Source of the DNA: Elusimicrobiota bacterium
GTDB lineage: Bacteria; Elusimicrobiota; Elusimicrobia; 2-02-FULL-39-32
Assembly (NCBI GenBank): GCA_021730935.1
Contig: JAKFYJ010000021.1
Location: forward strand, 22,451 to 86,450
Length of the DNA stretch: 64,000 bases
Reading direction: 5' to 3'
The position numbers and the translations under genes were made by a program. Positions 8,213-57,058 of this stretch are shown here, piece after piece. A model generated the notes under the pieces. It was given only the letters and a program-made list of their open reading frames with translations. It was not told the origin of the DNA and did not search any database. The stretch's first letter is position 1. Every line of letters begins with the position of its first letter.

Positions 8213-8277
8213 TGTTACATTTTTGTTACAAAATGTTTAGGATTTTATTATGACATTACAGGTAGACTCTTGTAATG
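8213..8277 (+). promoter_or_regulatory. candidate promoter and 5' leader structure of the giant GT gene
   Basis: Direct repeat TGTTACA at 8213-8219 and 8224-8230 with 11-bp phasing. -35 TTGTTA (8223-8228), 17-nt spacer, -10 TATTAT (8246-8251). Inverted repeat CATTACA (8254-8260) / TGTAATG (8271-8277) spans the ATG at 8275. Confidence 0.4.
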
Positions 8278-27827: not shown

Positions 27828-28428
27828 GGGGCGTCAAAAGAACGTTGAAATGCTTTTTGAATTGGTTTTGGAGCGCCGTCACGGTTTCGGGATTCAGCGC
27901 AATCTGGATGGACCCCTGGTGGAGGGCTTTGTTTTTTTCGCGCCACTGGGCGCCGCCCACGATTTTCTTTCCGTTCAGAGTGAGGTCATAACAAACCGCG
28001 CTCGTGAAACACCATCCGTTGTCCGCATCTTTCTGGCAGGCCATAGTGGTTTCGATTCCGAGCTCTTTCAAACCTTCAGCGATCCAGGTGTGGATCGCGT
28101 TATATGATTCCTTGACGTTCCATGGGATCGACTGAGTTTCTTTGTTCCAAAAAAGCGAGAAGCATAGGTCTTCGCGATGTTCCACCATGCCGCCTCCGCT
28201 GGGCCTTCCCACCACCATGATGCCGCGTTGGAGGAACGACCTTTCAATGTCGGAATCAATGCCTTGCGTGCGGCCGAAACTGACCGCGGGTTTGGACCAG
28301 CGATAAAATCTCAGAGTGGGAAGAGAAAATGTCTGAAAAAGTTTCCGGTCCCTGTCCATGGTTTGGAAGGGAGGCTCAGAAAGATAGGGAAGTGTGTTCC
28401 AGGTCTCGAGTGTTTTTGAAGGGATCAC
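27820..28428 (-). CDS. lipoate-protein ligase / octanoyltransferase family protein (BPL/LPL catalytic domain)
   Basis: KIVGGAQWREKNKALHQGS and RFYRWSKPAVSFG motifs. Likely GTG start at 28428, overlapping the gcvPB TGA as GTGA. The longer annotated ORF 27820..28779 overlaps gcvPB and was trimmed. Confidence 0.6.
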   Translation of the reverse strand: MIPSKTLETWNTLPYLSEPPFQTMDRDRKLFQTFSLPTLRFYRWSKPAVSFGRTQGIDSDIERSFLQRGIMVVGRPSGGGMVEHREDLCFSLFWNKETQSIPWNVKESYNAIHTWIAEGLKELGIETTMACQKDADNGWCFTSAVCYDLTLNGKKIVGGAQWREKNKALHQGSIQIALNPETVTALQNQFKKHFNVLLTPHE

Positions 28429-29897
28429 TTGGCCAGAGCTTCCTGGCTTTGGGCTTCCGGCGACCATCGGAGGATGGGGTTGCGGGCGGCCGTCACTTCG
28501 TCCAATCTCCTCACGGGAGTCGTGTGGGGCGCGGTCTGGACCATGGCCGGGTTTGTTTTGGCTTCGTCCATGATCTTGTTCATGGCTCTCACAAATTCGT
28601 CCATCGTTTTTTTGGATTCCGTTTCGGTGGGCTCCACCATCATGGCTTCCGGCACGATCAAAGGGAAATAAACCGTCGGGGCATAGAACCCATAATCCAA
28701 AAGCCTTTTTACGATGTCCAATGTTCTTATTCCGGACTTGGCGTATTCGCTGGCCGACAAAACGCATTCGTGCATGCAATGCTCGTCGATATAGGGCTTG
28801 AAAAGACCTTTGAGGTGGGACAAAAGATAATTCGCATTGATGATCGCGTTTTCGCTGACAGACCTCAGTCCATCGTGGCCAAGGGTGGCGATATAGGTGT
28901 AAGCCCGGACAAGCGCTCCGCTGTTCCCGAAGAAGGCGCGCAATTGGCCGATGGAGGTTTTTGAATCCGTGACCAGATTAAACTGCTTGTCTTTCTTCTC
29001 GATGCGGGGCATGGGCAAAAACTTTTCCAGATATTTTTTTACACCCACAGGTCCTGCTCCCGGGCCGCCGCCGCCGTGGGGGACGCTGAATGTTTTGTGG
29101 AGGTTCAGGTGCATGATGTCGAATCCGAGTCTCGCCGGTTCCACGAGGCCGACGAGAGCGTTGAAGTTGGCTCCGTCCATATATAAAAGCGCTCCGGCCT
29201 TGTGCACGAGGTCCGCCACTTCCTGAATTTCGTCTTCAAATAGACCGAGGGTGTTGGGACAGGTGATCATGACAAGGGAAACGTCAGGGCCCAGGGCTTC
29301 CGCCAAGGCTTTCTTGTTGACTCTCCCTTTGTCGTTAGAGGGAATGGAATGAACGGAATATCCCGCCAACGCCGCGCTCGCCGGGTTGGTTCCGTGCGCG
29401 CTGTCCGGGACCAGCACTTTGGTGCGTTTCTCTCCGCGCGCGTCAAAATAAGCATGAGCCACGAGGAGTCCTGCCAGTTCGCCTTGAGCGCCGGCCGCGG
29501 GGTGAAGACTGAAAGCATCCATTCCCGTGAGGTCGCACAAGGATCGTTCCAGGTTCCACATGAGCTCGAGAGTTCCCTGCATGGTCTCGGATGTCTGATA
29601 AGGGTGAACGCCTGTGAATCCTGCGAACATGGAAGTTTTATCGTTAATCTTGGGATTATATTTCATGGTGCAGGACCCGAGGGGATAAAAATTCGTGTCT
29701 GCGGAAAAATTGAGCTGGGAGAGCCGGGTGAAATGGCGCACCACGTCGAATTCCGAAACTTCAGGGAGCCCTGCAAGTTTTTTGCGTTTCCACTTTTCGG
29801 GGACGGCGGCTTTCGTGGAGGATTTTTTGAGGGGGAACGCCGCGCCTCTCCTTCCGGGAACGCTGGTTTCGAATATCAAAGGATGTTTTGGGGTCAT
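28425..29897 (-). CDS. gcvPB: glycine dehydrogenase (decarboxylating) subunit 2
   Basis: PLP-dependent GcvPB sequence (MTPKHPLIFETSVPGRRG... N-terminus). The start overlaps the gcvPA stop (ATGA). Confidence 0.9.
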   Translation of the reverse strand: MTPKHPLIFETSVPGRRGAAFPLKKSSTKAAVPEKWKRKKLAGLPEVSEFDVVRHFTRLSQLNFSADTNFYPLGSCTMKYNPKINDKTSMFAGFTGVHPYQTSETMQGTLELMWNLERSLCDLTGMDAFSLHPAAGAQGELAGLLVAHAYFDARGEKRTKVLVPDSAHGTNPASAALAGYSVHSIPSNDKGRVNKKALAEALGPDVSLVMITCPNTLGLFEDEIQEVADLVHKAGALLYMDGANFNALVGLVEPARLGFDIMHLNLHKTFSVPHGGGGPGAGPVGVKKYLEKFLPMPRIEKKDKQFNLVTDSKTSIGQLRAFFGNSGALVRAYTYIATLGHDGLRSVSENAIINANYLLSHLKGLFKPYIDEHCMHECVLSASEYAKSGIRTLDIVKRLLDYGFYAPTVYFPLIVPEAMMVEPTETESKKTMDEFVRAMNKIMDEAKTNPAMVQTAPHTTPVRRLDEVTAARNPILRWSPEAQSQEALAK

Positions 29898-31237
29898 CGG
29901 ATTTTCCTCAGGGTTTCGGAGAGTTTTTCGATATCGTCCGGCATGATCATTTCCGTGGCGCAATAAAGGACACAGCCTTTCAGTTCCGGATAATAGGGTT
30001 CGAGAGCCAATCCTCCAACGATGCCGGCTTTGCGGAGCGCTTTGTTAATTTTCTCCGGCGAGGCTTTTGATCGGATCACAAATTCGTTGAAGAAAGGCGC
30101 TGAAAAGACTTCGGAAAATCCCTTGATCTTGGCGATCGCTTCTTTCGTCTCATGAGCGCGGTTGAAATTGAGCTGGGCGCATTCCTTGAGCCCCTGAGGG
30201 CCGAGCACGGAAAGATATATGGTGGAGGCCAGAGCCATGAGAGCTTCGTTCGTGCAGATGTTGGAAGTGGCTTTTTCCCGCCGGATATGTTGCTCGCGGG
30301 TCTGGAGGGTCAGAGTGAATCCGCGTTTGCCGTTCAGATCTTTGGTCATGCCGCAGACGCGTCCGGGCATTTTTCGCACGTGAGAGAATTTGCAGGAAAA
30401 GAGTCCCAGGTTGGGCCCGCCGAAATTCATTGGAATGCCGAGCGGCTGGCCTTCGCCTGTCGCCACATCCGCGCCATATTCTCCAGGAGGCGCGAGCAGT
30501 CCCAGAGACATGGGGTTGGCGCTCACCACGAAAAGGGCGCCGGATTTTTTTGCCGCATGGCCCATCTGTTCGCCTTCTTCAAGGATGCCGAAAAAATTGG
30601 GAGACTGGATCATCACACAGGCGGTGTCGCTGTCGATCTTTGATTCAAGATCCTTCATGGACGTTTGGCCGTTTTCAATGGCAATTTCTTCCACGGAAAA
30701 ACTTTTGCTGTAGGTTTGGATCACTTTTCTGTATTCCGGATGCACGGCGCGGGAGACAAGGATTTTTTTGCGGCCCGTCTCTCGCACCGCCAGCAAAGCC
30801 GCTTCCGCCAGAGCGGAGGCTCCGTCATAAAGAGAAGCGTTGGCCACATCCATGCCATAAAGCTCCGCGATCATGGTTTGATATTCAAAAGTCGCCTGGA
30901 GAGTTCCCTGGCTGGCTTCGGGCTGATAAGGCGTGTATGCCGTGATGAATTCGCCTCTCGTGATCAGAGAAGGCACGACGGCTGGAATAAAATGGTTATA
31001 AACTCCTGCTCCAAGGAAACAGGCTTTTTTGCCCGCCGGCTCATTTTTGTGGGCCAGGGCTGAGAGATGAGCGTCCACTTCCATCTCCGTCAGGCCGTCC
31101 TGAAGCGTCTGTTTTTTCGTGTGGGAATAGATCGCGTTCTTGGGGATGTTTTTGATCAGGTCTTCAAATTTGGAGACGCCGATCTCGGCTAAAAGTTCTT
31201 TGCGTTCCTTCTCGGTGTTGGCGACGTATTGCATGTT
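29894..31237 (-). CDS. gcvPA: glycine dehydrogenase (decarboxylating) subunit 1
   Basis: Starts MQYVANTEKERKELLAEIG...; the true start lies inside the longer annotated ORF. Confidence 0.9.
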   Translation of the reverse strand, partial: NMQYVANTEKERKELLAEIGVSKFEDLIKNIPKNAIYSHTKKQTLQDGLTEMEVDAHLSALAHKNEPAGKKACFLGAGVYNHFIPAVVPSLITRGEFITAYTPYQPEASQGTLQATFEYQTMIAELYGMDVANASLYDGASALAEAALLAVRETGRKKILVSRAVHPEYRKVIQTYSKSFSVEEIAIENGQTSMKDLESKIDSDTACVMIQSPNFFGILEEGEQMGHAAKKSGALFVVSANPMSLGLLAPPGEYGADVATGEGQPLGIPMNFGGPNLGLFSCKFSHVRKMPGRVCGMTKDLNGKRGFTLTLQTREQHIRREKATSNICTNEALMALASTIYLSVLGPQGLKECAQLNFNRAHETKEAIAKIKGFSEVFSAPFFNEFVIRSKASPEKINKALRKAGIVGGLALEPYYPELKGCVLYCATEMIMPDDIEKLSETLRKIR

Positions 31238-31245
31238 GAAAGTCC

Positions 31246-31632
31246 TTAATGGTGTCCGGCTTCGGATTTCAGGAATTCCAGATACTGGTCGTGCGTCATC
31301 AATTCCTTGAGGTCTCCGGCGTTCGCGATGTCCAGCTTGAAAAGCCATCCGTCTCCATAGGGCGATTTGTTGACGAGCTCGGGATTTTTGGAAACCTTGT
31401 CATTCACTGCGGCAACTTTTCCGGAAACGGGCGCATAAATGGGGAAAGCGGCTTTCACGGATTCGAGGGTCGCGATTTCGCCTTCCTTCTGGGCGGCTTT
31501 GCCTGCCTGCGGGAGATCCACAAACACCACGTCCGTCACTTCTTTCTGGGCGTGGTCCGAAATGCCGACGGTGCCGTCGGGAGAAATCCATTCGTGAGAT
31601 TTTGCGAAGCGTAATTTAGAGGTGTCTTGCAT
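31246..31632 (-). CDS. gcvH: glycine cleavage system H protein (lipoyl carrier)
   Basis: 128 aa containing the lipoyl-lysine motif ESVKAA. Confidence 0.9.
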   Translation of the reverse strand: MQDTSKLRFAKSHEWISPDGTVGISDHAQKEVTDVVFVDLPQAGKAAQKEGEIATLESVKAAFPIYAPVSGKVAAVNDKVSKNPELVNKSPYGDGWLFKLDIANAGDLKELMTHDQYLEFLKSEAGHH

Positions 31633-31647
31633 AGAATTGATCCTTTC

Positions 31648-32724
31648 TTAGTTTTTGCTTCCCGTATAAAACGGCAATTTTACAATCTCTGCGGCCACGG
31701 GTTTTCCGTTGCATTCAATCGCAAACTTTCCGGAGAGTCCTGTTGGAACATAACCCATCGCGATGCCTGTTTTCAGAGTAGGCGAATAAGTCCCGCTGTT
31801 CAGTTCCCCGACGGCTTTCCCGTCGCACAAAATTTTAAATCCGTGTCTCGGGATTCCCCGGTCCGTCATCTTGAAAGCGGTCAGCTTTTGTTTGAGTCCT
31901 CTGTTTTTCTGCTCAAGCAGGGCCTGTTTTCCGATAAAATCACCCTTCTCAAATTTTACGACCCACGAAACTCCGGCTTCGAGCGGAGAGTGATTGTCGT
32001 CGATGTCGTTGCCGTAGAGAAGATATCCCGCTTCGAGCCTCAAAGTGTCTCTCGCCCCCAACCCGCAGGGCAATATCCCGAAAGTTTGGCCTTCTTTCAT
32101 CACGGCGTCCGTTAAATTTTCAATGATCCCGTTCGGGGCGACAATTTCCACGCCGTCTTCGCCCGTATATCCCGTCCGGCATATAAAAACTTTCTGATTG
32201 CTGAAAACTGTTTCTGAAACCTGGTGCCGCTCAGGGACTTTGAATAGCTTTGAGATGACCGCGACCGCTTGAGGCCCCTGAACCGCGATCATGCTCCATT
32301 TGTCGCTCTCGTTGTGAACAGTGACCGAGGGACGCCCGTGCGAAAGCATCCATTGGAAATCTTTTTCTGCAGTCGAAGCGTTGACCACCACGAGATATTT
32401 TGTCGGGAATTTCAAACAATATACAAAAATATCATCGATCACGCCACCTTGGGGGTTGCAGAGGTGGGAATACATGGCTTTGCCCTCCGCGCACTTTGAG
32501 AGGTCGTTCGTGCAGAGGTTTTGGAGGAACGGCAAGGCTTCTGCGCCTTCAACAAAAACCTGTCCCATGTGGGAAATGTCAAAAATTCCGACCCCGTTTC
32601 TCACTGCCAGATGCTCCTGCATGATGCTGGTGTATTGAACCGGCATTTCCCATCCGGCAAATTCTGTGAACCTTGCGCCGCGGCGTTTGTTCCATTCGTA
32701 AAGTGGGGTTCTCTTAGATGACAT
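31648..32724 (-). CDS. gcvT: glycine cleavage system aminomethyltransferase T
   Basis: 358 aa with GcvT N-terminus ...TPLYEWNKRRGARFTEFAGWEMPVQY. Confidence 0.9.
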   Translation of the reverse strand: MSSKRTPLYEWNKRRGARFTEFAGWEMPVQYTSIMQEHLAVRNGVGIFDISHMGQVFVEGAEALPFLQNLCTNDLSKCAEGKAMYSHLCNPQGGVIDDIFVYCLKFPTKYLVVVNASTAEKDFQWMLSHGRPSVTVHNESDKWSMIAVQGPQAVAVISKLFKVPERHQVSETVFSNQKVFICRTGYTGEDGVEIVAPNGIIENLTDAVMKEGQTFGILPCGLGARDTLRLEAGYLLYGNDIDDNHSPLEAGVSWVVKFEKGDFIGKQALLEQKNRGLKQKLTAFKMTDRGIPRHGFKILCDGKAVGELNSGTYSPTLKTGIAMGYVPTGLSGKFAIECNGKPVAAEIVKLPFYTGSKN

Positions 32725-33595
32725 GGTTTAACATTTCTCCCGCGTGATAAGACGATCTCACCAAAGGCCCACAGAACACATGGTCAAATGGAAACTGTTC
32801 CGCTGATTCTTTGATGGCTTTGAATTCATCCGAAGTATAAAATTTTTCTATGGGCAGATGTTCCTTGGAGGGTTGGAGATATTGCCCCACTGTCACCAGA
32901 TGGACTCCTGCGTCATATAAATCAGAAAAAGCAGTGCCCAGCTCCTCAAAAGTTTCCCCAAGCCCCACCATCACTCCAGATTTTATCTTTATGCCTTTGC
33001 TTGTTTGAGACGCCGTCTTAAGCATATAAAGAGAGCGATCATAGGTGGCTTTGGAACGGACTTTGGGAGTGAGCCGCCGCACCGTTTCGAGGTTGTGGTT
33101 GAACACGTCCGGCCTGCTTTCAAGCACGGTCTGCAGAGATTCTACGCGCCCTTCAAAATCGCTCGTCAAAACTTCGATGGTCGCAAAAGGCAGGCCTTGT
33201 TTGAGGGTTCTCACAGTTTCGGCAAATTGGCTTGCCCCGCCTTCATAAAGATCGTCTCTCGCTGGGGCCGTGATCACAATGTGGGTGAGGTTCAGCCTTT
33301 GGGCGGCGTCCAAGATTCTTTGAGGTTCCGTTGCGTCCACGCCCATGGGTTTGCCGGTTTTCTCCGCGCAGAACCCGCACCGTCTCGTGCAGATGTCTCC
33401 CAGGATTTGAAATGTGAGAGTCCCCTTGGCATAACATTCCGTCCTGTTGGGACACTTGGCTTCTTCGCAGACCGTGTTGAGGCGGAATTTGTCCAAAGTT
33501 TCCGTCAAATTAAAATAGGTCGGGCCTCCGGGAATTTTTTGCCGGAATTCCTTCGGCAAAGGCGATGGGCGAAGCACGGTCAAGCGGGAACTCAT
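32714..33595 (-). CDS. lipA: lipoyl synthase (radical SAM)
   Basis: CEEAKCPNRTEC and CTRRCGFC cysteine clusters. Confidence 0.9.
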   Translation of the reverse strand: MSSRLTVLRPSPLPKEFRQKIPGGPTYFNLTETLDKFRLNTVCEEAKCPNRTECYAKGTLTFQILGDICTRRCGFCAEKTGKPMGVDATEPQRILDAAQRLNLTHIVITAPARDDLYEGGASQFAETVRTLKQGLPFATIEVLTSDFEGRVESLQTVLESRPDVFNHNLETVRRLTPKVRSKATYDRSLYMLKTASQTSKGIKIKSGVMVGLGETFEELGTAFSDLYDAGVHLVTVGQYLQPSKEHLPIEKFYTSDEFKAIKESAEQFPFDHVFCGPLVRSSYHAGEMLNHVI

Positions 33596-34953
33596 CGTTC
33601 CATGGCTCCTTTGATGCCTTCAGCAAATGTCGGATGAGCAAAAATCACGTCTTTGATGTCTTTCTTGGTGAGCCCGCCTTTGATGGCGACGGAAATAATG
33701 TGAATGAGTTCAGTCGCGTGGGGGCCGATGATTTGGGCGCCCAGAATTTTTTCCGAAGCTTTGTCTATGATGATCTGGATAAACCCTTCCGTGTCGCCTT
33801 CCGCGAGAGCGCGCCCTGAAGCGCCGAAAAAGAATCTTTGACTCTTGGTTTCGATATTTTTTTCCTGCGCCTGATGCGCCCAGAGTCCCACGGAAGCCAC
33901 TTCCGGCCAGGTATAAAGGCATCTCGGAACGAGGGCCCCGTCATATTCTTTGGATTCTCCCGTGATGTTGGACGCCGCAATTTCGCCTTGAGCGGATCCG
34001 GCGTGAGCGAGGAGAGAAAGACCCGTGACATCTCCGGCCGCATAGATATCGGGATTGGAGGTCTGCATATTCGGATTGACTTCAATGCCTTTGGGGGAAA
34101 ATTTGACGGAAGCGTTTTCCAGGCCCAGCATGTCGAGTTTCGGACGCCGCCCGACGCAAGCCAGGACTTGAGCCGTCTCCATGACCGTCCCGTTTGAGAG
34201 GGTTAGCCGCCAGTTCAGCTGGTGTCGTTCCATTTTGTCTATGGTTGTTGAATCTTTGACCGTGATTCCGCGCTGTTCAAATGATTTTCTGAGGACATTA
34301 ACGATCTGCGGGTCTTCTCCGGGCAGGAGGTTCGCGGTTTTCTCGATGATCGTGACCTGCACGCCCATTTCGTCCAGAAGGCAGGCGAACTCGCACCCGA
34401 TGGCGCCGCCGCCCACAATAACGATATTCTCGGGCAGGTTTTCAACGTCAAAAATGGTGTCGCTGTTGAGGATGTTTTTGACATGCGCATCCAGAGGGGG
34501 AGGGAATATGGGAGATGACCCTGCGGCGATCACAGCCTTGTCGAAAGTCAGAGTCTGGGTTTTTCCGTCAGCTGTGACCTGGATAGAATTTTTTGAGAGA
34601 AATTTGGCTTCGCCTTTGAGCACCTTGGCGCCGGACAAAGCGATGGATTTTTCATCGTCGCCGCGCAGAGTTTCCACGACCTTGGCTTTGCGTTTCCGCA
34701 TGGCGTTCCAAAGGGCGCTTCTGTCTGAGGGGGAATCCAGCGGAACGGCCGTTCGGGACTGGGAGATGACTTCTTTTAAGTCGCGTATCTTCTTGCCATA
34801 GGCGAGGAGAGTTTTGGAGGGGATGCATCCCCAGTTCAGGCAAACGCCGCCCACATGACCTTTTTCGATCAAGGTGACGGAAATTTTTTTCCTGGCGGCA
34901 GATTTCGCGGCGGCCTCGCCTGCGGGGCCGGCTCCGATAACAATGAGGTTCAA
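33592..34953 (-). CDS. lpd: dihydrolipoyl dehydrogenase
   Basis: GAGPAG FAD fold, redox-active CLNWGCIPSK motif, 453 aa. Confidence 0.9.
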   Translation of the reverse strand: MNLIVIGAGPAGEAAAKSAARKKISVTLIEKGHVGGVCLNWGCIPSKTLLAYGKKIRDLKEVISQSRTAVPLDSPSDRSALWNAMRKRKAKVVETLRGDDEKSIALSGAKVLKGEAKFLSKNSIQVTADGKTQTLTFDKAVIAAGSSPIFPPPLDAHVKNILNSDTIFDVENLPENIVIVGGGAIGCEFACLLDEMGVQVTIIEKTANLLPGEDPQIVNVLRKSFEQRGITVKDSTTIDKMERHQLNWRLTLSNGTVMETAQVLACVGRRPKLDMLGLENASVKFSPKGIEVNPNMQTSNPDIYAAGDVTGLSLLAHAGSAQGEIAASNITGESKEYDGALVPRCLYTWPEVASVGLWAHQAQEKNIETKSQRFFFGASGRALAEGDTEGFIQIIIDKASEKILGAQIIGPHATELIHIISVAIKGGLTKKDIKDVIFAHPTFAEGIKGAMER

Positions 34954-37544: not shown

Positions 37545-37940
37545 TTACAAGGACGGGGGCTGTTTGAGTTCCAGCCGGAGCGCTTCGAGCGATTCGTTCA
37601 CTTCGCGGATGAACATCACGAGCGCGCTCACCATCAGGAAAAGGCAGGCGGCGAACAAAGCGGCGATGAAGACGGAAGCGTCCACCGCGAGAATTTCGGC
37701 TGAGAAAATTGTGATGATGAGGAGCGCCGCGGTCAGGGCGCTTGAGGACGCGAGGATGATGGCGATGCGGATCAGCCGCGCCCGTTTCCATAAAATGGCC
37801 AATTGTTTGGGATCGGTCAGTTCCCGCGCCCGGTCGATGGTCCGGCCCAGGCGGTTCGTCATGGTGAGCAAGAGAAGCCCCACTCCGGAAATTAAAATCG
37901 CCGGGCTGATCGCGGTCTGGAGGATGGGAATGAGGTTCAT
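37545..37940 (-). CDS. DUF2721 family membrane protein
   Basis: 131 aa with a DUF2721-like helix arrangement. Confidence 0.55.
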   Translation of the reverse strand: MNLIPILQTAISPAILISGVGLLLLTMTNRLGRTIDRARELTDPKQLAILWKRARLIRIAIILASSSALTAALLIITIFSAEILAVDASVFIAALFAACLFLMVSALVMFIREVNESLEALRLELKQPPSL

Positions 37941-38016: not shown

Positions 38017-38592
38017 ATGAACAAGAACCGGCTTGAAGCTTTCAGCGACGGAGTCATCGCCATCATCATCACGATTATGGTCCTGGAACTCAAAGTTCCG
38101 CACGAACCCAATTTTTCCGCTCTCGCCGCCATGCTCCCCACATTTTTGAGCTATACCCTCAGCTATGTTTTCCTCGGCATTTATTGGAACAATCACCACC
38201 ACCTCTTTCAGGCGGCCAAACATGTCAATGGGCGCGTCTTGTGGGCGAACCTGCACTTGCTCTTCTGGCTCTCGCTTATTCCTTTTGCGACGGGCTGGAT
38301 GGGGGAAAACCATTTTGATCCTGTCCCTGTGGCGCTCTATGGCGTCATCATGCTCTTCTCCGGCATGGCTTATTATATTTTGGCTCAGGTCCTCATTTCT
38401 CACCACGGAAAGGATTCTTTGTTGGCTTCCGCGCTCGGCAACGACATCAAAGGAAAAATTTCACTAGTGATTTATGCCCTCACGCCTCCGCTGGCATTTG
38501 TGAACCCCTGGATCTCCTGCGCGCTTTATGTTGTGGTGGCCGTGATGTGGCTGGTTCCTGACCGGCGGATAGAAAAGAAAATTACGGCTTAG
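38017..38592 (+). CDS. TMEM175/DUF1211 family membrane protein (putative K+ channel family)
   Basis: N-terminal RLEAFSDGVIAIIITIMVLEL signature. Confidence 0.7.
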   Translation: MNKNRLEAFSDGVIAIIITIMVLELKVPHEPNFSALAAMLPTFLSYTLSYVFLGIYWNNHHHLFQAAKHVNGRVLWANLHLLFWLSLIPFATGWMGENHFDPVPVALYGVIMLFSGMAYYILAQVLISHHGKDSLLASALGNDIKGKISLVIYALTPPLAFVNPWISCALYVVVAVMWLVPDRRIEKKITA

Positions 38593-39623
38593 TTTTGGAT
38601 GACGGGCTCGGGCGGATTCGAAGCGATGGCTTCAATCATCTCGAGGAGTTCCTGGTGAGTTTTTGAGGAAAAAATCTTGGCCCGCATCTGGGCCGCCTGG
38701 GCAAAACCTTTCAGATACCACAGACAAATTTTACCGAGGGCTCCCACTTTCCCCGCCGAAGGCGAGGTCTCGCCCAAAAGGGGCGGACAGTCCGCAGAAT
38801 TTTCGTCAATCTCTTTGATCAGCCGCAGGTGTTTTATGAGCACGCGGAGTTTGCGCGCCAGGTCCATCGACGGTTTCCATTCCCCCGTGGCGAGATAAGT
38901 TTCAATTTCCTGAAATATGAAAGGGTTTCCGAAAGAGCCCTTGGCGATCAAAATTCCGTCGCACCCTGTCTCGTCAAACATTTTTTTTGCGAGGGGGGGA
39001 TTCAAGATGTTGCCGCTCCCGAAAACCGGAATTTTTACGGCTTCTTTGACGGCGCGAATGGCTTCATAGCTCACGGGGCCATAATTTTCCTGCGACCGTG
39101 ACCGCCCGTGCACGAACAGCGCCGAAGCGCCTGAATTTTCGATGCCTTTGGCGAACTGAACGGCCTGCGGAATGTCCACGGAGCTCAGGCCCACCCGCAT
39201 TTTGACGGTGATGGGCACGGGGAGATCTTTCGTCAATCTTTCGATCAGGCGATAAAGCGGATCTGATTTGCTGAAGAGGCAGGAGCCGGCCCCTTTCTTG
39301 AAAATTTTTCTGGCCGGGCAAGCGGCGTTGATGTCCAGGAAAGTGATGGGGGCCAGGTCCAGAATTTTGCGCGCGGCTTCAAGCATGATCTCGGGGTCCG
39401 TGCCCAACAGCTGGGCCGCGATCGGCGCGTCTCCAGGGGCAGTCCTCAGGATTCTGGACGATCTCGGAGAGCCCCACTTGAGAGAGAGCGAGTCGGACAT
39501 CTCGAAGAAACAGAACTTCGCTCCGTGTTCCCGCGCGATCAGACGGAACGGCAAATCCGAGCAGGCGGAGAGCGGCGCCAGAAAGATGTTGGTGTTGATT
39601 TCCCGATTTCCGATTCGAACCAT
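38589..39623 (-). CDS. tRNA-dihydrouridine synthase
   Basis: MVRIGNREINTNIFLAPLSACSDLPFR N-terminus and a TIM-barrel Dus family sequence throughout. Start at M76 of the longer ORF; M74 at 39629 is an alternative. Confidence 0.85.
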   Translation of the reverse strand: MVRIGNREINTNIFLAPLSACSDLPFRLIAREHGAKFCFFEMSDSLSLKWGSPRSSRILRTAPGDAPIAAQLLGTDPEIMLEAARKILDLAPITFLDINAACPARKIFKKGAGSCLFSKSDPLYRLIERLTKDLPVPITVKMRVGLSSVDIPQAVQFAKGIENSGASALFVHGRSRSQENYGPVSYEAIRAVKEAVKIPVFGSGNILNPPLAKKMFDETGCDGILIAKGSFGNPFIFQEIETYLATGEWKPSMDLARKLRVLIKHLRLIKEIDENSADCPPLLGETSPSAGKVGALGKICLWYLKGFAQAAQMRAKIFSSKTHQELLEMIEAIASNPPEPVIQN

Positions 39624-39639
39624 CGACATATTATATATA

Positions 39640-40533
39640 ATGAACCCTTCAATGAATTCAAAATATTCTCCCAACCGGCAAAGCCCGTTCCTCTCCGGCG
39701 TCGCGGTGGACCCGTCTCCGAGGATCGTTCTCGAAAAAGGATCCAAAGAGCTCACCATGCGCGCCATGGATTTGATCGCTCCCATCGGCATGGGCCAGCG
39801 CGGATTGATCGTGGCTCCGCCCGGATCCGGCAAGACCACGCTCCTCAAACACCTCTGCCAGTCCGTCGCGGCGGGATATCCCGAAGTGAAACTTTATGCC
39901 TTGCTGATCGACGAGCGCCCCGAAGAAGTGACCGATTTTAAACGCGCCATCCCCGCTCCCGTGTGGTCGTCCTCGTCTGACGAAACCTATGAACATCACA
40001 TCCAGATGGCGGACCAGCTCATCCAGCAGGCCATGAGCGAGGCGGGCGCCGGAGCCAATGTCATGATCGTGATCGATTCTCTCACTCGCCTTTCCCGCGT
40101 TCACAACGCGGAACAGCGCGGCGGCGGAAAGATCATGTCGGGGGGAGTTGGGGCAGGCGCCCTGGAAATCCCGCGAAGAATTTTCGGAGCGGCCCGGAAA
40201 ATCGAAAACGGCGGGTCCCTCTCCATCATCGCCACGATTCTGGTTGAAACGGGAAGCCGCATGGACCAGGTGATTTTTGAAGAATTTAAAGGCACGGGCA
40301 ACATGGAACTTGTCCTCTCGCGGGAAGTGGCCCAGCAGAGAATTTATCCCGCCATCGACATCGCCAAGAGCGGCACCCGCAAAGAAGAACTTCTCATGAC
40401 GCCGAAAGAGCTTTTGAAGACCCGCGAACTCCGCCGCGAACTCATCGGTTTGGGCCCTGTCGGCGCCGCCCAGGCTCTCTATGACAGGCTGTCCGTCACC
40501 TCCAACAACGAAAAACTTCTCGCTTCCATATAA
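39640..40533 (+). CDS. rho: Rho-like transcription termination factor ATPase domain only (no N-terminal RNA-binding domain)
   Basis: Collinear with the E. coli Rho C-terminal RecA-like domain, including the Walker A motif and the LIDERPEEV region. The first in-frame ATG (39640) corresponds to the linker after the OB fold; the upstream sequence is antisense dus. Confidence 0.8.
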
Positions 40534-41190
40534 ATGAAATCAGCTTTAATCCTCGGCGCGAGCGGCGCGGTCGGTTCCCATTGTCTGAATCTCCTCCTTG
40601 ACTCTCCTCGATATGAAAAAGTCACCGCCCTGGTCCGCACTCCGCTGGATGTTTCACATCCCAAACTTGTCCAGCATCCGGTTGATTTTGACCAGTTGAG
40701 AAAATATGAGCAAGTCGTCCGGGCTCAAGATATTTTTTGCTGTCTTGGGTCCACCACCAAAAAGTCCGGAAACCAGGCCGCATATTATAAAGTGGATTTC
40801 ACATATCCTTATGAGACCGCAAAAATCGCCTTGAGGAACGGCGCTGAACGATATGCTCTTGTGTCTTCAGTGGGAGCTTCTGTCTCTTCAAGATTTTTTT
40901 ATCTCCGTCTCAAAGGCGAGATCGAACGCGCTCTGACCTTGCTTCCCTTCAAAGCTCTGCACATTTTCCGCCCGTCTCTGATTCTGGCCGAGAGAAAGGA
41001 ATTTCGCTTGAACGAAACCACAGCCGTGGCCGCCGCCAAAGCCCTGTCGTTTATGTTTGTGGGTCCCATGGCCAAATACCGTCCGCTTGAAGCCGAAGAC
41101 ATTGCCCGCGCGATGGTGGGATCGTTCGAGGGGGATTCTCGCGATCACAAAATTTTTGATGTTCCAAAAATTAGGTCGCTCGCGCAATAA
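40534..41190 (+). CDS. NAD(P)H-binding (NmrA/atypical SDR-like) protein
   Basis: ILGASGAVGSHCL Rossmann motif, 218 aa. Confidence 0.6.
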   Translation: MKSALILGASGAVGSHCLNLLLDSPRYEKVTALVRTPLDVSHPKLVQHPVDFDQLRKYEQVVRAQDIFCCLGSTTKKSGNQAAYYKVDFTYPYETAKIALRNGAERYALVSSVGASVSSRFFYLRLKGEIERALTLLPFKALHIFRPSLILAERKEFRLNETTAVAAAKALSFMFVGPMAKYRPLEAEDIARAMVGSFEGDSRDHKIFDVPKIRSLAQ

Positions 41191-50675: not shown

Positions 50676-51615
50676 CGTTCACGTCCACCTGGCCGCTCTG
50701 CCGGACGGCGACAATGGATGCCACATCTCCAAAGAAATGGTTCACGGGGCGCTTTTCCGGTTCCTTTTCTGGAAGCTGGGGATTTCTGTGGATGAAGCCA
50801 AAAAAAGCAATGAGCGTTATGTTGAGAAGCTCGTCAAACTTCTGCGGGAATCCAAACATGTCCGAAAAGCTGTCCTCCTCGGGATGGACGGGGTTTATGA
50901 CGATGCGGGAAACTTGAACAAGGATGCCACGCACTTCATCGTGTCCAACGATTATGTCCTTCAAACCGCAAAAAAATATCCAGACCTCTTCCTTGCAGGA
51001 ATATCAGTGAACCCCAAACGAAAGGATGCGGTTGATGAAATCAATCGCTGTGCCCCGCAAGGCGCGGCCCTCGTAAAAGTCCTGCCCAATTCCCAGGATT
51101 TTGATCCCGCCAATAAAAAATATCTTTCATTTTATAAGGCGATGGCCAAACACAAACTGCCTCTCCTCTCTCATGTGGGATATGAGTTCAGTCTTTGGGG
51201 AAAAGATCAGTCGGTGGGAGACCCCGCCAGAGTCCGCATGGCTCTCGACGAGGGAGTGACGGTGATTGCCGCGCACGGAGCGAGCTATGGGCTTTTCTTC
51301 TATGAAAAATATTGGAACACGCTTCTGGAACTGACGCGGAAATATCCGAATTTTTATTGGGACGCTTCCGCGCTCACTCTGCAAAACCGCGTTGGAATGC
51401 TTTTAAAGATCCGCAATCATCCCGAGCTTCACAGCCGCATGGTCTTCGGGACCGATTACCCTTTGCCCTGCTATGCTTATCCTGCGCTCCTTGCAGGAAA
51501 ACTGTCCGGATACATCGAGCTGCTGCGCACTTCGAACCCATTCGACCGTCACCACCGGCTTTTGGAAATTCTTGGGATTCGCGGAAACTCTGAACTTTTA
51601 AAGGATAAATTATGA
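50668..51615 (+). CDS. amidohydrolase-family metal-dependent hydrolase (TIM barrel)
   Basis: N-terminal MIDVHVHL metal-binding motif. Start at 50668 removes the overlap with the upstream gene. Confidence 0.6.
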   Translation: MIDVHVHLAALPDGDNGCHISKEMVHGALFRFLFWKLGISVDEAKKSNERYVEKLVKLLRESKHVRKAVLLGMDGVYDDAGNLNKDATHFIVSNDYVLQTAKKYPDLFLAGISVNPKRKDAVDEINRCAPQGAALVKVLPNSQDFDPANKKYLSFYKAMAKHKLPLLSHVGYEFSLWGKDQSVGDPARVRMALDEGVTVIAAHGASYGLFFYEKYWNTLLELTRKYPNFYWDASALTLQNRVGMLLKIRNHPELHSRMVFGTDYPLPCYAYPALLAGKLSGYIELLRTSNPFDRHHRLLEILGIRGNSELLKDKL

Positions 51616-54600
51616 AGACACGAAGCCTTCTCATGCGCGATAAAGGGTTTTTGGCGCTCACCATCGCTCAATTTTGGAGCGCGCTCAACGACAACGCTTT
51701 CAAATTTATGGTCACTCTGCTCTGCATCCAGTGGGTGAGCGATCCCGGAATGGCGAGCCGGTATGTTTCAATCGCAAGCGGGATTTTCGTGTTGCCGTTC
51801 ATCCTTTTTTCCACGCATGCGGGCTATGTCGCAGACCGTTTCAGCAAGCGCTCAGTCGCCATCGGCGCAAAAATCGCGGAAATCCTTGTGATGCTCTTGG
51901 CGGTGGGCGCGCTCCACATGAGAAGTCTTCCGGCCATCATGGCCGTGCTGTTTTTGATGGGCCTTCACAGCACATTTTTCAGTCCCGCAAAATATGGAAT
52001 GCTTCCTGAAATTCTGGACGAAAAAGATCTTTCCAACGGCAATGGGATCATCAACCTTTCCACGTTCATGGCCATCATTTTGGGCACGCTTGTGGGCGGG
52101 GAAATTTTAAACCGCGCTGGGGACAACCTTCAGTATGCCGGATGGATGTTTGTCTTGATCGCTGTTCTTGGAACCGCGGCAAGCCTGTTCATCACTCCCA
52201 CACTGCCCGCGCAGACAACGGAAAAAATGGATTGGAACCCGATAAGAAAATCTTATCTGAATCTCAAGGAAGCGGCAGGGGACCGCGTTCTTGGACTGAG
52301 CGTTGCCGGCACGGGATATTTTTGGCTCGTGGGCGCGCTTCTCATCATCGTTCTGCCTCTCTACGGAAAATTCACTTTAGGTTTGGAAGAATCTAAAATC
52401 CAGTGGCTCCTGGCTTGTCTTTCCATCGGGATTGGGTTGGGTTCGGGCATTGCAGGAAAAATATCCGGAGAAAAGGTTGAGCTCGGACTTGTTCCTTTGG
52501 GGTCCATCGGGCTGGGCATCTTCTGTCTGGACATCGCGTTTGGGGCGCCTTCATTTCTGCGCGGAATGACTGACATCTTTTTCCTTGGAGCTTCCGCCGG
52601 ATTTTTTGTTATCCCTTTAAATGCGCTCATTCAGGCCCGCGCCCCCAAAGAATCCAAGGGCAAAATGATCGCGACCACGAACATTGTGAGTTTCATCGCC
52701 ATCGGGCTGGCTTCTTTGTTGAATCTTGTTTTAACCGATCATTCGCTTTTGGGATTGAGCTCAAGACAGGTTTTTGGCATTGTCGGTTTCGGGACCATTT
52801 TTGCGACCGCCTATGTTCTCTGGCTCTTGCCGGCGGCTTTTACGCGTCTGGTCTTTTGGTTCATCACCCACAGCGTTTACCGCATCAAAGTGATCGGCAG
52901 AGAAAACATTCCGCTTAAAGGCCCGGCGCTTCTGGTCTCGAACCATGTGGCCTATATCGACCCGTTTCTCGTCGCGGCTTCGGTATCGCGGAACATCCGG
53001 TTTTTCATGTGGCGCCCGATCTATGAATTCAAGCCGTTAAACTGGTTTTTCAAAATGATGAACGCCATTCCCATCTCCGCCACCGACGGGCCGAAAAAAT
53101 TCATGTCAAGCATGGAAGAGGCCAGGCAGGCCTTGAGAGACGGCCATGTGGTCTGCATTTTCGCTGAAGGTTCAATCACGCGCTTGGGTCAGACCCTGGG
53201 CTTCAAGAAAGGCGTCGAGATCATTGCGAAGGATTTGGATGTTCCCATCATCCCCATCCACCTGGACCGCGTTTGGGGGAGCATCTTCAGTTTTCACGGA
53301 AAACAATTCATCTGGAAACTGCCGAAGAAAGTCCCCTATCCCGTCACCCTTTCCTTCGGCGGCGCCCTTCCGTCAACCTCGAAAGCTCACGAAGTCCGCC
53401 AGGCGGTCATGGATCTCGGGAGCGCGGCGTTCAACCAAAGGGAAGATTCTCTGATGGCGCTGCACCGCATGTTTCTGAGACAAGCCAAATCGAGCTGGAC
53501 AGGGAAATGCATGGCGGACAGTTCCGGAATAAAACTGAATTATGGACAGACCGTCACTGCTTCTTTTTGGATGGCGCGGCAGTTAAAGAATCGACTGGGA
53601 AAATCGGAGAATGTTGGAGTTCTGATCCCATCAACGGTTCCGGGCGCTTTAGTTAATGTCGCTTTGCCCATGCTGGGGAAAACTCCTGTCAATCTGAATT
53701 TCACGATGTCGGAAGACCTTGTTGGCAAGATCGTTCAAAAAAGCGGAATCGAAAAAATTATCACTTCCAGAAAGGTTTTGGAGGCGCTCAAATGGAAGGA
53801 AGATGCGAGAATGATTTTTATTGAAGACCTTCAGGTCCCGAGCATCATCGTGGGTTCATTTCTATGGCTTCTTTTGTGGGCCCTCCCTTCGTTTCTGACA
53901 GAAATGATATTTTTGCCGCAATCAAGAAAAGGGATTGATGAGGTCGCCACATTGATGTTTACAAGCGGAAGCACCGGAGATCCCAAGGGCGTCATGCTCA
54001 CTCACAGGAACATCCAGTCCAATGTTCAGGGCCTTCAGGAAATCTTTCAGCTGGACTCCACAGATGTTCTGATCGGCGTTCTTCCGTTTTTCCATTCCTT
54101 CGGATTTACAGCCACGATATGGTTTCCGCTCCTGGGAGGGTTTCCGGTCGTTTATCATAAAAGCCCTCTGGAAGCCGCAATGGTCGACCGCTTGATTCGG
54201 GAACATCGCGGCACGGTTCTGTTGGGAACGCCGACATTCCTGCAGATGTGGAGCAGGAAATTCAAAAAGGAAGATGTGGCCAGCGTCAAGTTCGCCATGG
54301 TGGGAGCTGAGAAGCTTAGAGATTCGATAGCCAAAGAGTTTGAAGAAAAATTCAACATCAAGGTGCTTGAAGGCTATGGCTGCACGGAGCTTTCGCCTGT
54401 GGCGGTCACGAGCGCGCTCAATGTCCAGGCGCATCATGAGTCGCAGGTGGGTCACAAATCGGGGAAGGTCGGACGTCCGCTTCCGGGGGTCACAATAAAA
54501 ATCGTCGATCCTGAAACGAATAAAAATCTGCCTCAAGGCGAAGCGGGCCTCATGCTGGTCAAAGGGCCCAATGTCATGAAAGGATATTTCGGCGACCCTG

Positions 54601-56500: not shown

Positions 56501-57058
56501 TTATCGGACGAGTTTTTTTACGAGTTTTATAGGAAGCCCCATCACGCCCTGCCAATCTCCGTCGATTTTATTGACCAGCCGGTCCACTTTGTCCTGACAG
56601 GCATAAGACCCGGACTTGTCCAGATGTTTGCCCCCGATTTTGGGCGCCTCGTCTTTGGATATTTTCCTGAAATAAACCTTGCTCACCGACAGCCCGCTTT
56701 TCACTTTTCCGCTCTTTGAATTGATGAGAGCCACCCCCGTATAAACCCGGTGCATTTTTCCTGACAACTGCAAAAGCATATTGCCCGCGTGCCGGACCGA
56801 CCTGGGTTTGCCGAAAATTTTTCCTCTCAAGACCACGATCGTGTCCGCGCCTATCACGAGATGTTCATCTTCTTCAGATTTAATTTTGTTCGCAATTGAA
56901 CGAGCTTTTAAAACGGCAAGACGCCTCACAAACTTCGACGGAGATTCTCCCCGTTTGCGGTTTTCAGGCTCATGGCTCGGAATCACTTTGAAGTCCACGC
57001 CCATTTCTTTCAGGAGTTCTTTTCTGCGCGGTGATGAAGAAGCTAAAATCCATTTCAT
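56501..57058 (-). CDS. maf: Maf-family nucleoside triphosphate pyrophosphatase
   Basis: ILASSSPRRKELL N-terminus, 185 aa. Confidence 0.85.
   Translation of the reverse strand: MKWILASSSPRRKELLKEMGVDFKVIPSHEPENRKRGESPSKFVRRLAVLKARSIANKIKSEEDEHLVIGADTIVVLRGKIFGKPRSVRHAGNMLLQLSGKMHRVYTGVALINSKSGKVKSGLSVSKVYFRKISKDEAPKIGGKHLDKSGSYACQDKVDRLVNKIDGDWQGVMGLPIKLVKKLVR

What the first reader, a model, noticed from the sequence alone, without database searches (positions are those of the whole stretch)
39621..40533. Rho paralog reduced to the ATPase domain, with start codon back to back with dus
The ORF is collinear with Rho residues about 150-419 and keeps the P-loop, catalytic Glu region and Q/R loops, but the N-terminal helical and OB-fold primary RNA-binding domain is absent. 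Sequence upstream of ATG 39640 is the antisense strand of a well-supported dus gene whose own ATG (39623 or 39629) lies 11-17 nt away across a TATATATA element. Neither gene therefore has independent upstream non-coding space. If not an assembly artefact, this is a naturally N-terminal-domain-less Rho expressed from a promoter embedded in dus, which raises the question of how it loads onto RNA.
Basis: seen in the sequence. Interest (0 to 1): 0.6.

Follow-up and report, generated by a model that had tools for sequence, protein, structure and literature searches.

The report
Rho-like motor lacking RNA-binding domain
This is a real, conserved gene for a Rho-type ring ATPase that keeps the RNA-pulling motor but has lost the whole N-terminal RNA-recognition domain; it belongs to a widespread, apparently undescribed clade in uncultivated Omnitrophota-like bacteria, so how it finds its RNA is an open question.

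Summary
ORF 39640 (or 39652)-40533 encodes 297 (or 293) aa that match only the C-terminal motor domain of Rho (about 49% identity to E. coli Rho 143-411). Walker A/B, the catalytic Glu, the Arg finger and the Q and R loops are all intact. dus starts 10-28 nt away on the other strand.

It is not an assembly artefact. More than 200 protein clusters from Omnitrophota- and Elusimicrobia-labelled MAGs have the same architecture (259-358 aa, no Rho_N or OB domain) in unrelated gene contexts. Many carry Arg/Pro/Ser/Asn-rich basic tails instead of the N-terminal domain.

The clade is separate from canonical Rho: 51% motor identity, against 67% among canonical Rho of different phyla. Omnitrophota also have a highly conserved full-length Rho in the usual coaE-rho-rpmE-prfA context. 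"Paralog" is therefore likely, but I could not show both genes in one genome.

The dus adjacency is specific to this genome. The spacer is a perfect palindrome, ATTATATATAAT, giving TATAAT on both strands. Many genes in this window have a -10-like box just before the ATG, so leaderless transcription looks common here.

Verdict: a new variant of a known kind, of moderate interest.

The parts
39640..40533 (+). Short Rho-like gene (297 aa from ATG 39640; 293 aa from ATG 39652, the start used for database protein P0001). It encodes the Rho C-terminal RecA-type motor domain only.
   Evidence: the AlphaFold model has pLDDT 86; Foldseek against Rho structures gives TM 0.91, rmsd 1.4 A
39640..39687 (+). 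N-terminal tail [16 protein letters not shown] (16 aa, net charge +2), predicted disordered. It is the short counterpart of the 25-55 aa basic R/P/S/N/Q/H-rich tails of other family members.
   Evidence: (residues 1-13 have pLDDT below 50)
39688..39735 (+). Conserved family motif [16 protein letters not shown], aligned with the E. coli Rho inter-domain linker and the start of the C-terminal domain (about residues 131-147).
   Evidence: F17, D24, P25, P27, R28, L31, E32 invariant in 28 sequences
39814..39837 (+). Walker A / P-loop APPGSGKT (E. coli PPKAGKT; the residue aligned with K181 is Gly throughout the family)
39910..39927 (+). DERPEE: catalytic Glu and adjacent Arg, aligned with E. coli E211 and R212
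40069..40089 (+). Walker B VIDSLTR (aligned with E. coli D265, S266, R269)
40117..40155 (+). Q loop [13 protein letters not shown] of the secondary RNA-binding site. K283 is kept here and is Arg in 97% of the family; T286 is Ser in all members.
40249..40266 (+). R loop TGSRMD of the secondary RNA-binding site (E. coli K326 is Arg in 100% of the family)
40369..40383 (+). SGTRK: arginine finger, aligned with E. coli R366
39630..39641 (.). Perfect palindrome ATTATATATAAT between the divergent starts. It gives TATAAT on both strands, ending 6 nt before dus ATG 39623 and 10 nt before rho ATG 39652. Candidate bidirectional -10 element (inferred).
   Evidence: no full sigma-70 consensus promoter was found
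38589..39629 (-). tRNA dihydrouridine synthase gene (Dus; DusB-like), start ATG 39629 or 39623. Incidental neighbour.
   Evidence: not adjacent to short rho in any related locus
40534..41190 (+). NAD(P)H-binding (NAD_binding_10) protein gene. Its ATG directly follows the rho stop codon, so it is probably co-transcribed.

Best explanation
The ORF is a genuine, selectively maintained gene for a Rho-family ring ATPase made of the C-terminal motor domain plus a short disordered tail. It belongs to a distinct, old clade of OB-fold-less 'short Rho' proteins found in MAGs labelled Omnitrophota, Elusimicrobia and, in one case, Sericytochromatia. Most likely mechanism (inferred): subunits assemble into a hexamer through the C-terminal domain, hydrolyse ATP, and pull single-stranded RNA through the central channel with the conserved Q and R loops, as Rho does. 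The protein has no primary binding site, so it cannot read C-rich rut sites. RNA capture must instead be non-specific, through the basic Arg-rich tail that most members carry (rudimentary in this copy), or must come from a partner. Such a partner could be a transcription-complex factor or full-length Rho subunits in mixed rings. Omnitrophota also have a canonical, very conserved Rho, so the short form is most likely a specialised second Rho rather than the housekeeping terminator. The dus adjacency is incidental. Both genes are probably transcribed divergently from the palindromic TATAAT spacer as leaderless or near-leaderless mRNAs.
For: Shown:
- The match covers the motor domain only, and all catalytic and RNA-translocation residues are conserved or conservatively replaced across 125 aligned family sequences.
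- The fold agrees with Rho structures.
- The 205 or so listed clusters are 259-358 aa and lack Rho_N and Rho_RNA_bind.
- Twelve independent loci have unrelated upstream genes, and in two the start overlaps the stop of the preceding gene.
- No remnant of the N-terminal domain lies within 10 kb in 14 loci or anywhere in the window.
- The short clade has 83% NJ bootstrap support. Motor-domain identity is 51% to canonical Rho, against 67% among canonical Rho of different phyla.
- Canonical Rho is widespread in Omnitrophota, and sits in a coaE-rho-rpmE-prfA context on complete genome CP070837.1.
- Tail length correlates with net positive charge (r = 0.87), and Arg makes up 18% of tail residues. Elusimicrobia members have Arg/Gly/His/Gln-rich tails.
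- The gene's GC3 (0.70) resembles that of its neighbours, so it looks native.
- The review PMC12360218 assigns hexamer cohesion, ATPase activity and translocation to the C-terminal domain.
Against: - No genome was shown to hold both forms.
- This copy's tail is only 16 aa with charge +2, and several members start with acidic 7-aa tails. Tail-mediated loading therefore cannot be general, unless some starts are miscalled.
- No conserved partner gene was found.
- Hexamer formation, RNA-stimulated ATPase activity and any termination activity are untested.
- In published pre-termination complexes Rho contacts RNA polymerase largely through its N-terminal face, and that face is missing here.
Confidence: 0.6

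Rival explanations
1. Sole Rho: in this lineage the short protein is the only Rho and carries out genome-wide transcription termination without any primary RNA-binding site. It would be recruited, for example, by NusG or directly by the elongation complex.
For: - No canonical rho lies in the 64-kb window.
- Strong conservation of the motor is compatible with an essential role.
- In the small sample of accessions read (7 short, 7 canonical clusters), no short and canonical accession fell in a shared range.
- A related member comes from a Sericytochromatia MAG. Sericytochromatia is, to my knowledge, sister to the Cyanobacteria, which lack functional Rho.
Against: - Canonical Rho is present and highly conserved in many Omnitrophota MAGs and in a complete genome.
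- The short clade is not derived from the Omnitrophota canonical Rho and lies outside all canonical Rho diversity, as expected of an old paralog.
- The window covers only a few percent of a genome.
Confidence: 0.2
2. Split Rho: the N-terminal RNA-binding domain is encoded by a separate gene elsewhere and joins the motor non-covalently.
For: - Moreira et al. 2024 report stand-alone 'N-terminal + RNA-binding' Rho-like proteins in some bacteria.
- A CSD gene lies 1.3 kb downstream in one locus.
Against: - No sequence resembling the N-terminal domain lies within 10 kb of the gene in 14 loci or anywhere in the window.
- The CSD neighbour occurs in only 1 of 12 loci.
- The family has its own conserved N-terminal motif and basic tails, which suggests an independent solution.
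Confidence: 0.05
3. Repurposed ATPase: the protein keeps the Rho fold but no longer acts on RNA or transcription, for example as a stress-linked ATPase with another substrate.
For: - There is a recurrent, loose neighbourhood of stress and repair genes: msrA/B, Gpx, OsmC, UvrB, ExoX, RidA, Lhr.
- The clade has diverged from canonical Rho.
Against: - The Q-loop and R-loop RNA-contact residues are invariant or conservatively replaced: K326R in 100%, K283K/R, T286S. This is hard to explain without an RNA, or at least single-stranded nucleic acid, substrate.
- The neighbourhood pattern is anecdotal.
Confidence: 0.12
4. Artefact or pseudogene: a misassembly at about 39630, or a truncated dead copy of rho.
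For: None beyond the unusual 10-28 nt spacing from dus.
Against: - The same length and architecture occur in more than 200 clusters and 12 loci.
- The reading frame is intact, with all catalytic residues.
- An independent Logan assembly (SRR10388233) reproduces the adjoining stretch: the downstream gene preceded by a 286-residue ORF that runs off the contig end.
- dus is complete to its N-terminus.
Confidence: 0.02

Closest known systems
Canonical transcription termination factor Rho (E. coli type; TIGR00767; PDB 1pv4, 3ice, 5jji)
   Same: The C-terminal RecA-type motor has the same fold (TM 0.91) and 49% identity. Walker A/B, catalytic Glu, Arg finger, and Q and R loops are present.
   Different: It lacks the entire N-terminal domain (helical Rho_N plus the OB-fold primary binding site), so it has no rut or YC-dinucleotide recognition. 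It scores below the TIGR00767 cut-off (349.5 against 509.45). The family carries its own substitutions (K181G, V203K, K326R, T286S). It forms a separate clade.
'Group B' / Type 4 / subtype 2d second Rho copies (D'Heygere 2013, as cited; Moreira et al. 2024, PMC11347177)
   Same: These are shorter, divergent extra Rho copies attributed to ancient duplication and common in the PVC group. They often have basic disordered N-terminal regions, and hetero-hexamers have been proposed for them.
   Different: Those proteins keep the OB-fold RNA-binding domain, and Moreira's definition of a functional Rho requires it. This family has lost it as well. Omnitrophota were not in that 2730-genome survey.
'Rho-like' single-domain sequences (Moreira et al. 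2024)
   Same: By that paper's definition (only one Rho domain) this protein falls in the 'Rho-like' bin, which was reported for 421 species.
   Different: The bin is heterogeneous and is described only in a supplement not available here. In the text I could read I found no clade-level description, conservation analysis or proposed function.
NCBIfam NF041509 'paralog_Rho2, transcription termination factor Rho, short form' (360 aa)
   Same: A curated short Rho paralog family. This protein aligns to its positions 77-359.
   Different: It scores 317 against a cut-off of 628, and no sampled member of the clade reaches the cut-off. The model's additional ~76 N-terminal positions align with the canonical Rho region that includes the RNA-binding domain (P0355 residues 53-412), and that region is absent here.
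Rho factors with intrinsically disordered, Arg-rich insertions (Bacteroides thetaiotaomicron, Mycobacterium tuberculosis)
   Same: Basic low-complexity regions add non-specific RNA affinity or drive condensation. The tails of many short-Rho members have similar composition.
   Different: In those proteins the disordered region is inserted into an intact N-terminal domain. Here it replaces that domain, and in the window copy it is only 16 aa.

Membership tests
Canonical Rho (equivalog TIGR00767) | Whole-protein score at or above the curated cut-off of 509.45 bits | tested here: not met
   349.5 bits, matching model positions 138-412 only
Canonical Rho | Rho_N helical domain (PF07498) | tested here: not met
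   No Pfam hit. None in the precomputed Pfam domains of the ~205 listed relatives. tblastn of the N-terminal domain against the window found nothing.
Canonical Rho | OB-fold RNA-binding domain / primary binding site (PF07497) | tested here: not met
   No Pfam hit. The protein starts at the linker that corresponds to E. coli residues about 128-143.
Canonical Rho | RecA-type ATPase core with Walker A, Walker B, catalytic Glu and Arg finger | tested here: met
   Residues aligned with K184/T185, D265, E211/R212 and R366 are conserved in 99-100% of 125 aligned family sequences
Canonical Rho | Secondary RNA-binding site: Q loop and R loop | tested here: met
   Q loop GK(I/T)(M/L)SGG and R loop TGSRMD. 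K326R, K283K/R and T286S are conservative and fixed in the family.
Canonical Rho | Three-dimensional fold of the C-terminal domain | tested here: met
   The AlphaFold model (pLDDT 86) superposes on 8q3n, 5jjl and 3ice with TM 0.91 and rmsd 1.4-1.6 A
Canonical Rho | Hexameric ring, RNA-dependent ATPase activity, release of transcripts from RNA polymerase | not testable with these tools
   Needs biochemistry. Only a single chain could be modelled.
NCBIfam NF006886 (Rho, equivalog, used by NCBI's PGAP annotation pipeline) | Score at or above 315 bits | tested here: met
   365.9 bits, but covering only model positions 132-412. This probably explains why sources name these proteins 'transcription termination factor Rho'.
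NF041509 paralog_Rho2 (Rho, short form) | Score at or above 628 bits | tested here: not met
   317.1 bits. Five sampled clade members and three other divergent or OB-less Rho-like proteins score 289-384.
'Functional Rho' in the sense of Moreira et al. 2024 | [quoted passage not shown] | tested here: not met
   ATPase domain only, so it is 'Rho-like' by that definition
Group B / second-copy Rho paralogs | Co-occurs with a full-length Rho in the same genome | tested here: inconclusive
   A full-length Rho is widespread in the phylum. No shared contig or neighbouring accession numbers were found between the short and canonical sets. The window's own assembly could not be retrieved.
Group B / second-copy Rho paralogs | A clade distinct from the housekeeping Rho of the same phylum (ancient duplication) | tested here: met
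   In the NJ tree the short clade has 83% bootstrap support, and the Omnitrophota canonical Rho (L075, P0355) groups with other canonical Rho. Identity is 51% against 67%.
tRNA dihydrouridine synthase (the neighbouring gene) | Pfam Dus domain; DusB equivalog TIGR00737 cut-off of 293.3 bits | tested here: met
   Pfam Dus scores 204 bits (cut-off 20.4). TIGR00737 scores 274.5, just below its equivalog cut-off, so this is a Dus-family enzyme that is DusB-like.

The most novel reading that the evidence does not exclude
The short-Rho clade is a natural RNA translocase and terminator that works without a primary binding site. It would act either as the only Rho in some lineages or as a subunit that mixes with full-length Rho to tune how many rut-reading sites a ring carries. 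Loading would come from Arg-rich tails or from the elongation complex rather than from rut sites. That would show that Rho-type termination does not intrinsically need the OB-fold crown.
Probability: 0.25. Interest if true: 0.75.

Novelty: new variant of a known kind. Interest (0 to 1): 0.5.

Why it matters
Textbook Rho loads by reading C-rich rut RNA with its N-terminal OB-fold crown. Whether that step is obligatory, or whether Rho can be delivered to RNA by the transcription complex, is still debated as 'catch-up' versus 'stand-by'. A large, strongly conserved natural family that keeps every motor residue but has discarded the whole crown, often in exchange for an Arg-rich tail, is a ready-made test case for loading independent of the primary binding site. 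The same family could show how hexameric helicases swap their substrate-capture modules.

It also exposes an annotation problem. A curated NCBI model's cut-off lets these proteins score as 'transcription termination factor Rho', so genome surveys that count Rho by name or by ATPase-domain score may overestimate canonical Rho in uncultivated phyla.

Tried and rejected
1. Misassembly or pseudogene: rejected, because the architecture recurs in more than 200 clusters and 12 loci.

2. Remnant or split N-terminal domain nearby: tblastn with the E. coli and Omnitrophota Rho N-terminal domains against the window and 14 short-rho loci found nothing.

3. Conserved partner gene or operon: the neighbourhoods of 12 loci share no gene, and dus is adjacent only here.

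4. Same-genome co-occurrence of short and canonical Rho:
- I compared longest-contig lengths between the two short-Rho hit lists and the canonical hit list. The only coincidences were contigs too small to hold both genes.
- I compared GenBank protein accession ranges for 7 short and 7 canonical proteins and found none adjacent.
- I tried to recover the window's own record and obtained only a 1.6-kb Logan contig.
- I searched Omnitrophota papers and their supplements for Rho or K03628 and found only binary presence tables.
- Result: no evidence either way.

5. Defence-system membership: PADLOC gave only a 28-bit P-loop-level hit to mad8, which I rejected.

6. Sigma-70 consensus promoter in 39300-39950: none found.

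7. NusG-binding-site conservation: the key paper (Lawson 2018) is not held, so this was not evaluated.

8. Horizontal transfer of the gene into this genome: its GC and GC3 resemble the neighbours, so there is no support.
Full report
**1. The observation**

The + strand carries an ORF from ATG 39640 to TAA 40531-40533 (297 aa). A second in-frame ATG at 39652 gives the 293-aa form that exists as an identical database protein, P0001, on a 103,677-bp NCBI contig.

Pfam sees only the generic ATP-synt_ab nucleotide-binding domain. NCBIfam Rho models match only their C-terminal two thirds. NF006886 scores 365.9 bits over model positions 132-412. TIGR00767 scores 349.5 bits, below its cut-off of 509.45. 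E. coli Rho aligns over residues 143-411, with E = 1e-81 and about 49% identity.

The motor motifs are all present and were located exactly:

| Motif | Sequence | Coordinates |
|---|---|---|
| Walker A | APPGSGKT | 39814-39837 |
| Catalytic Glu | DERPEE | 39910-39927 |
| Walker B | VIDSLTR | 40069-40089 |
| Q loop | [13 protein letters not shown] | 40117-40155 |
| R loop | TGSRMD | 40249-40266 |
| Arg finger | SGTRK | 40369-40383 |

An AlphaFold model built on a 28-sequence alignment has mean pLDDT 86. Residues 1-13 are disordered. The model superposes on Rho crystal and cryo-EM structures with TM 0.91 and rmsd 1.4-1.6 A, over the C-terminal domain only.

On the minus strand a Dus-family gene (Pfam Dus 204 bits, DusB-like) ends its N-terminus at ATG 39629 or 39623. 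The one correction is that collinearity with Rho begins at the inter-domain linker (E. coli residues about 128-143), not at residue 150.

**2. Not an artefact: a conserved family**

The 120 best database relatives of the protein (66-100% identity) are all 259-337 aa. None has Rho_N or Rho_RNA_bind among its precomputed Pfam domains. Those that carry a name come from Candidatus Omnitrophica/Omnitrophota MAGs and one 'Elusimicrobia' MAG. A second search, from a different member, added about 85 further clusters with the same architecture.

I read twelve loci, and the upstream genes differ in every lineage:

- sensor kinase
- ABC-F ATPase
- AAA_14/DUF4143
- DUF4412
- NDH-2-like flavoprotein
- methyltransferase
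- a glutamate-racemase-like protein
- others

In L002/L003 and L089 the short-rho start overlaps the stop of the preceding gene, which leaves no room for an N-terminal domain. tblastn with the N-terminal domains of E. coli Rho and of an Omnitrophota full-length Rho found nothing in the window or in 14 short-rho loci. Misassembly, truncation and an adjacent split gene are therefore excluded. dus is next to the gene only in this window, even when compared with relatives of 79-82% identity.

**3. Anatomy of the family**

After a variable tail, all members share an invariant N-terminal motif, F-x(6)-DP-x-PR-x(2)-LE ([16 protein letters not shown] here), followed by the motor.

Across 125 aligned family sequences the residues aligned with E. 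coli K184, E211, R212, D265, R269 and R366 are 100% conserved. The RNA-contact residues are kept or conservatively and uniformly replaced. K326 is Arg in 100% of members. K283 is Arg in 97%, and is Lys in this copy. T286 is Ser in 100%. K181 of the bicyclomycin/P-loop region is Gly in all members. This pattern is what purifying selection on an ATP-driven RNA translocase would leave.

The tails before the motif range from 4 to 55 aa, with a median of 15. Their composition is:

| Residue | Share of tail residues |
|---|---|
| Arg | 18% |
| Pro | 13% |
| Ser | 10% |
| Asn | 8% |
| Gln | 6.5% |
| His | 6% |

Net charge reaches +10 and rises with tail length (r = 0.87). Elusimicrobia-labelled members have 60-90 aa Arg/Gly/His/Gln-rich tails.

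The window copy has one of the rudimentary tails, [16 protein letters not shown], with charge +2. The tail cannot be longer here, because the upstream in-frame sequence is antisense dus and does not resemble the family's tails. One caveat applies: some very short tails in database entries may be start-codon miscalls.

**4. Relationship to canonical Rho**

In a search of 1.84 billion representative proteins the family collapses to a few representatives. Every other Rho scores at about 50% identity.

Over 271 aligned motor-domain columns, canonical Rho from about 20 phyla average 66.6% identity with one another. Short-family members average 51% to canonical Rho, with a maximum of 56%. The window protein is 49% identical to E. 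coli Rho and 53.5% to the Omnitrophota canonical Rho, whereas that canonical Rho is 66% identical to E. coli Rho.

In an NJ tree the Omnitrophota, Elusimicrobia and Sericytochromatia short forms make one clade with 83% bootstrap support. The Omnitrophota canonical Rho (L075, P0355) sits among ordinary Rho. The short form is therefore an old, separate lineage and not a recent N-terminal deletion.

Full-length Rho (Rho_N + Rho_RNA_bind + ATPase, mostly 415-477 aa) is abundant and very conserved in Omnitrophota. The top 120 clusters are 78% or more identical, and 26 of them are named Omnitrophica/Omnitrophota. On complete genome CP070837.1 it lies in the classical coaE-rho-rpmE-prfA-prmC context.

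This makes 'paralog' the likelier status. I could not prove that both genes sit in one genome. There were no shared contigs between the hit lists and no neighbouring accession numbers. I put about 70% on a canonical rho existing elsewhere in this genome.

**5. Comparison with what is known**

Moreira et al. 2024 (PMC11347177) surveyed 2730 RefSeq genomes, and the text does not mention Omnitrophota. They describe second Rho copies ('Group B', Type 4, subtype 2d), which lack Rho_N but keep the OB RNA-binding domain. They attribute these copies to ancient duplications, note that they are common in the PVC group, and suggest hetero-hexamers. They define proteins with a single Rho domain as 'Rho-like', set them aside as not functional, and describe them only in a supplement not held here.

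NCBIfam has a 'paralog_Rho2, short form' model of 360 positions. Neither the window protein nor any sampled clade member reaches its cut-off.

I found no paper that links Omnitrophota with Rho. The window protein is thus a further step along a known trend, a Rho paralog that has lost the whole substrate-recognition module. It represents a large clade that appears not to have been described as such.

Other OB-less lineages with Arg-rich tails also turned up: P0130, P0135, P0156, and P0136 on 4.4-4.9 Mb contigs. The architecture may therefore have arisen more than once.

**6. Mechanism: what is shown and what is inferred**

Shown: the fold, and the conservation of the ATPase and RNA-loop residues. 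Established knowledge (review PMC12360218) places hexamer cohesion, ATP hydrolysis and translocation in the C-terminal domain, and rut recognition in the N-terminal domain.

Inferred: the protein forms a ring and translocates RNA, but cannot read rut sites. Capture would be non-specific through the basic tail where one exists. In tail-poor copies such as this one, capture would depend on a partner, such as mixed rings with full-length Rho or a transcription-complex factor.

No partner gene is conserved in cis. The immediate neighbours are often stress or repair genes:

- msrA/B
- Gpx and OsmC
- HI0933-like flavoprotein
- ExoX
- RidA
- UvrB
- Lhr
- the NAD(P)H-binding gene at 40534 in this window

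This may hint at a stress-linked role, but it is anecdotal. Whether the protein terminates transcription at all is open.

**7. The dus junction**

The spacer 39630-39641, ATTATATATAAT, is a perfect palindrome that gives TATAAT on both strands. Its -10-like hexamer ends 6 nt before dus ATG 39623 and 10 nt before rho ATG 39652. Neither start has a Shine-Dalgarno motif.

In this window 14 of 32 ATG-start genes have a -10-like hexamer ending 4-12 nt before the ATG. About 1.8 would be expected from the window-wide rate. The density is 1.8 hits per position at 4-12 nt, against 0.5 further upstream. Only about a quarter of gene starts have a Shine-Dalgarno-like motif.

Leaderless or near-leaderless mRNAs therefore look common in this organism. 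The lack of 'independent upstream space' is then ordinary: a shared bidirectional -10 element, with only the -35 regions lying in the neighbour's first codons. No full sigma-70 consensus promoter was detected, so this remains inference. The likely true starts are dus 39623 and rho 39652.

**8. Verdict**

The gene is a member of a sizeable, apparently undescribed clade of Rho-like motors without an N-terminal domain. That makes it a new variant of a known kind, of moderate interest mainly as a natural test of Rho function without a primary binding site.

Noticed in passing
window, gene starts throughout (for example 5888-7267 -, 37545-37940 -, 56501-57058 -, 58771-60363 +): 14 of 32 ATG-start genes have a TATAAT-like hexamer ending 4-12 nt before the start codon (about 1.8 expected), and only about a quarter of starts have a Shine-Dalgarno-like motif. 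Leaderless or very-short-leader mRNAs may be common in this organism.
   Followed up: partly
L002 10893-11402; L089 5888-6890 and 9068-9463; L090 7842-8327; L004 10928-12049; L009 3095-3904; L011 9931-10323; L006 11707-13752; L086 557-4918; window 40534-41190: Genes next to short rho are often stress or repair functions (msrB, Gpx, OsmC, msrA, HI0933-like flavoprotein, ExoX/RNase T, RidA, UvrB, Lhr helicase, NAD(P)H-binding protein), and several overlap or abut its stop codon. An ABC-F ATPase is adjacent in L002/L003/L089 and lies 17 kb away in the window (57251-58738). The pattern is anecdotal and was not tested statistically.
   Followed up: partly
P0130, P0135, P0136, P0156; L010 9746-10846, L011 8900-9934: Other Rho-like proteins without an OB fold fuse long Arg/Gly/Pro-rich disordered regions directly to the motor domain. 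P0136-type proteins sit on 4.4-4.9 Mb contigs. They do not all group with the Omnitrophota clade, so loss of the OB fold with gain of a basic tail may have happened repeatedly.
   Followed up: partly
window 39640-40533; NCBIfam NF006886: The curated cut-off of NF006886 (315 bits) is passed by proteins that have only the C-terminal domain (366 bits here), while TIGR00767 rejects them. This probably explains why public records name them 'transcription termination factor Rho'. Name-based Rho censuses may miscount.
   Followed up: yes
L007 9920-10891 (NZ_JBDVBQ010000029.1): A short-Rho gene (62% identity, Lys-rich tail, locus GC 38%) lies on a contig binned into a RefSeq 'Paraglaciecola sp.' MAG. 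This is either a binning error or horizontal transfer into a gammaproteobacterium. L005 is similarly labelled 'Planctomycetales'.
   Followed up: no
P0129 (MEZ0371657.1): A 301-aa short Rho from a Candidatus Sericytochromatia MAG joins the clade (83% bootstrap). Sericytochromatia is, to my knowledge, the non-photosynthetic sister lineage of Cyanobacteria, a phylum reported to lack functional Rho.
   Followed up: no
window 8275-16935 (+): A single 2886-aa ORF, which I did not annotate. Very long proteins are reported as a feature of Omnitrophota (titles and abstracts).
   Followed up: no
window 51612-55025 (+): A 1137-aa fusion of an MFS transporter, an acyltransferase and an AMP-binding enzyme. 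To my knowledge this resembles Aas/LplT-type lysophospholipid recycling fusions. It looks ordinary.
   Followed up: no
window 28425-34953 (-): A glycine-cleavage cluster (GcvP subunit, GcvH, GcvT), a radical-SAM protein and a dihydrolipoamide-dehydrogenase-like flavoprotein, next to a branched-chain amino-acid binding protein. Ordinary metabolism, and consistent with a free-living or metabolically capable cell.
   Followed up: no
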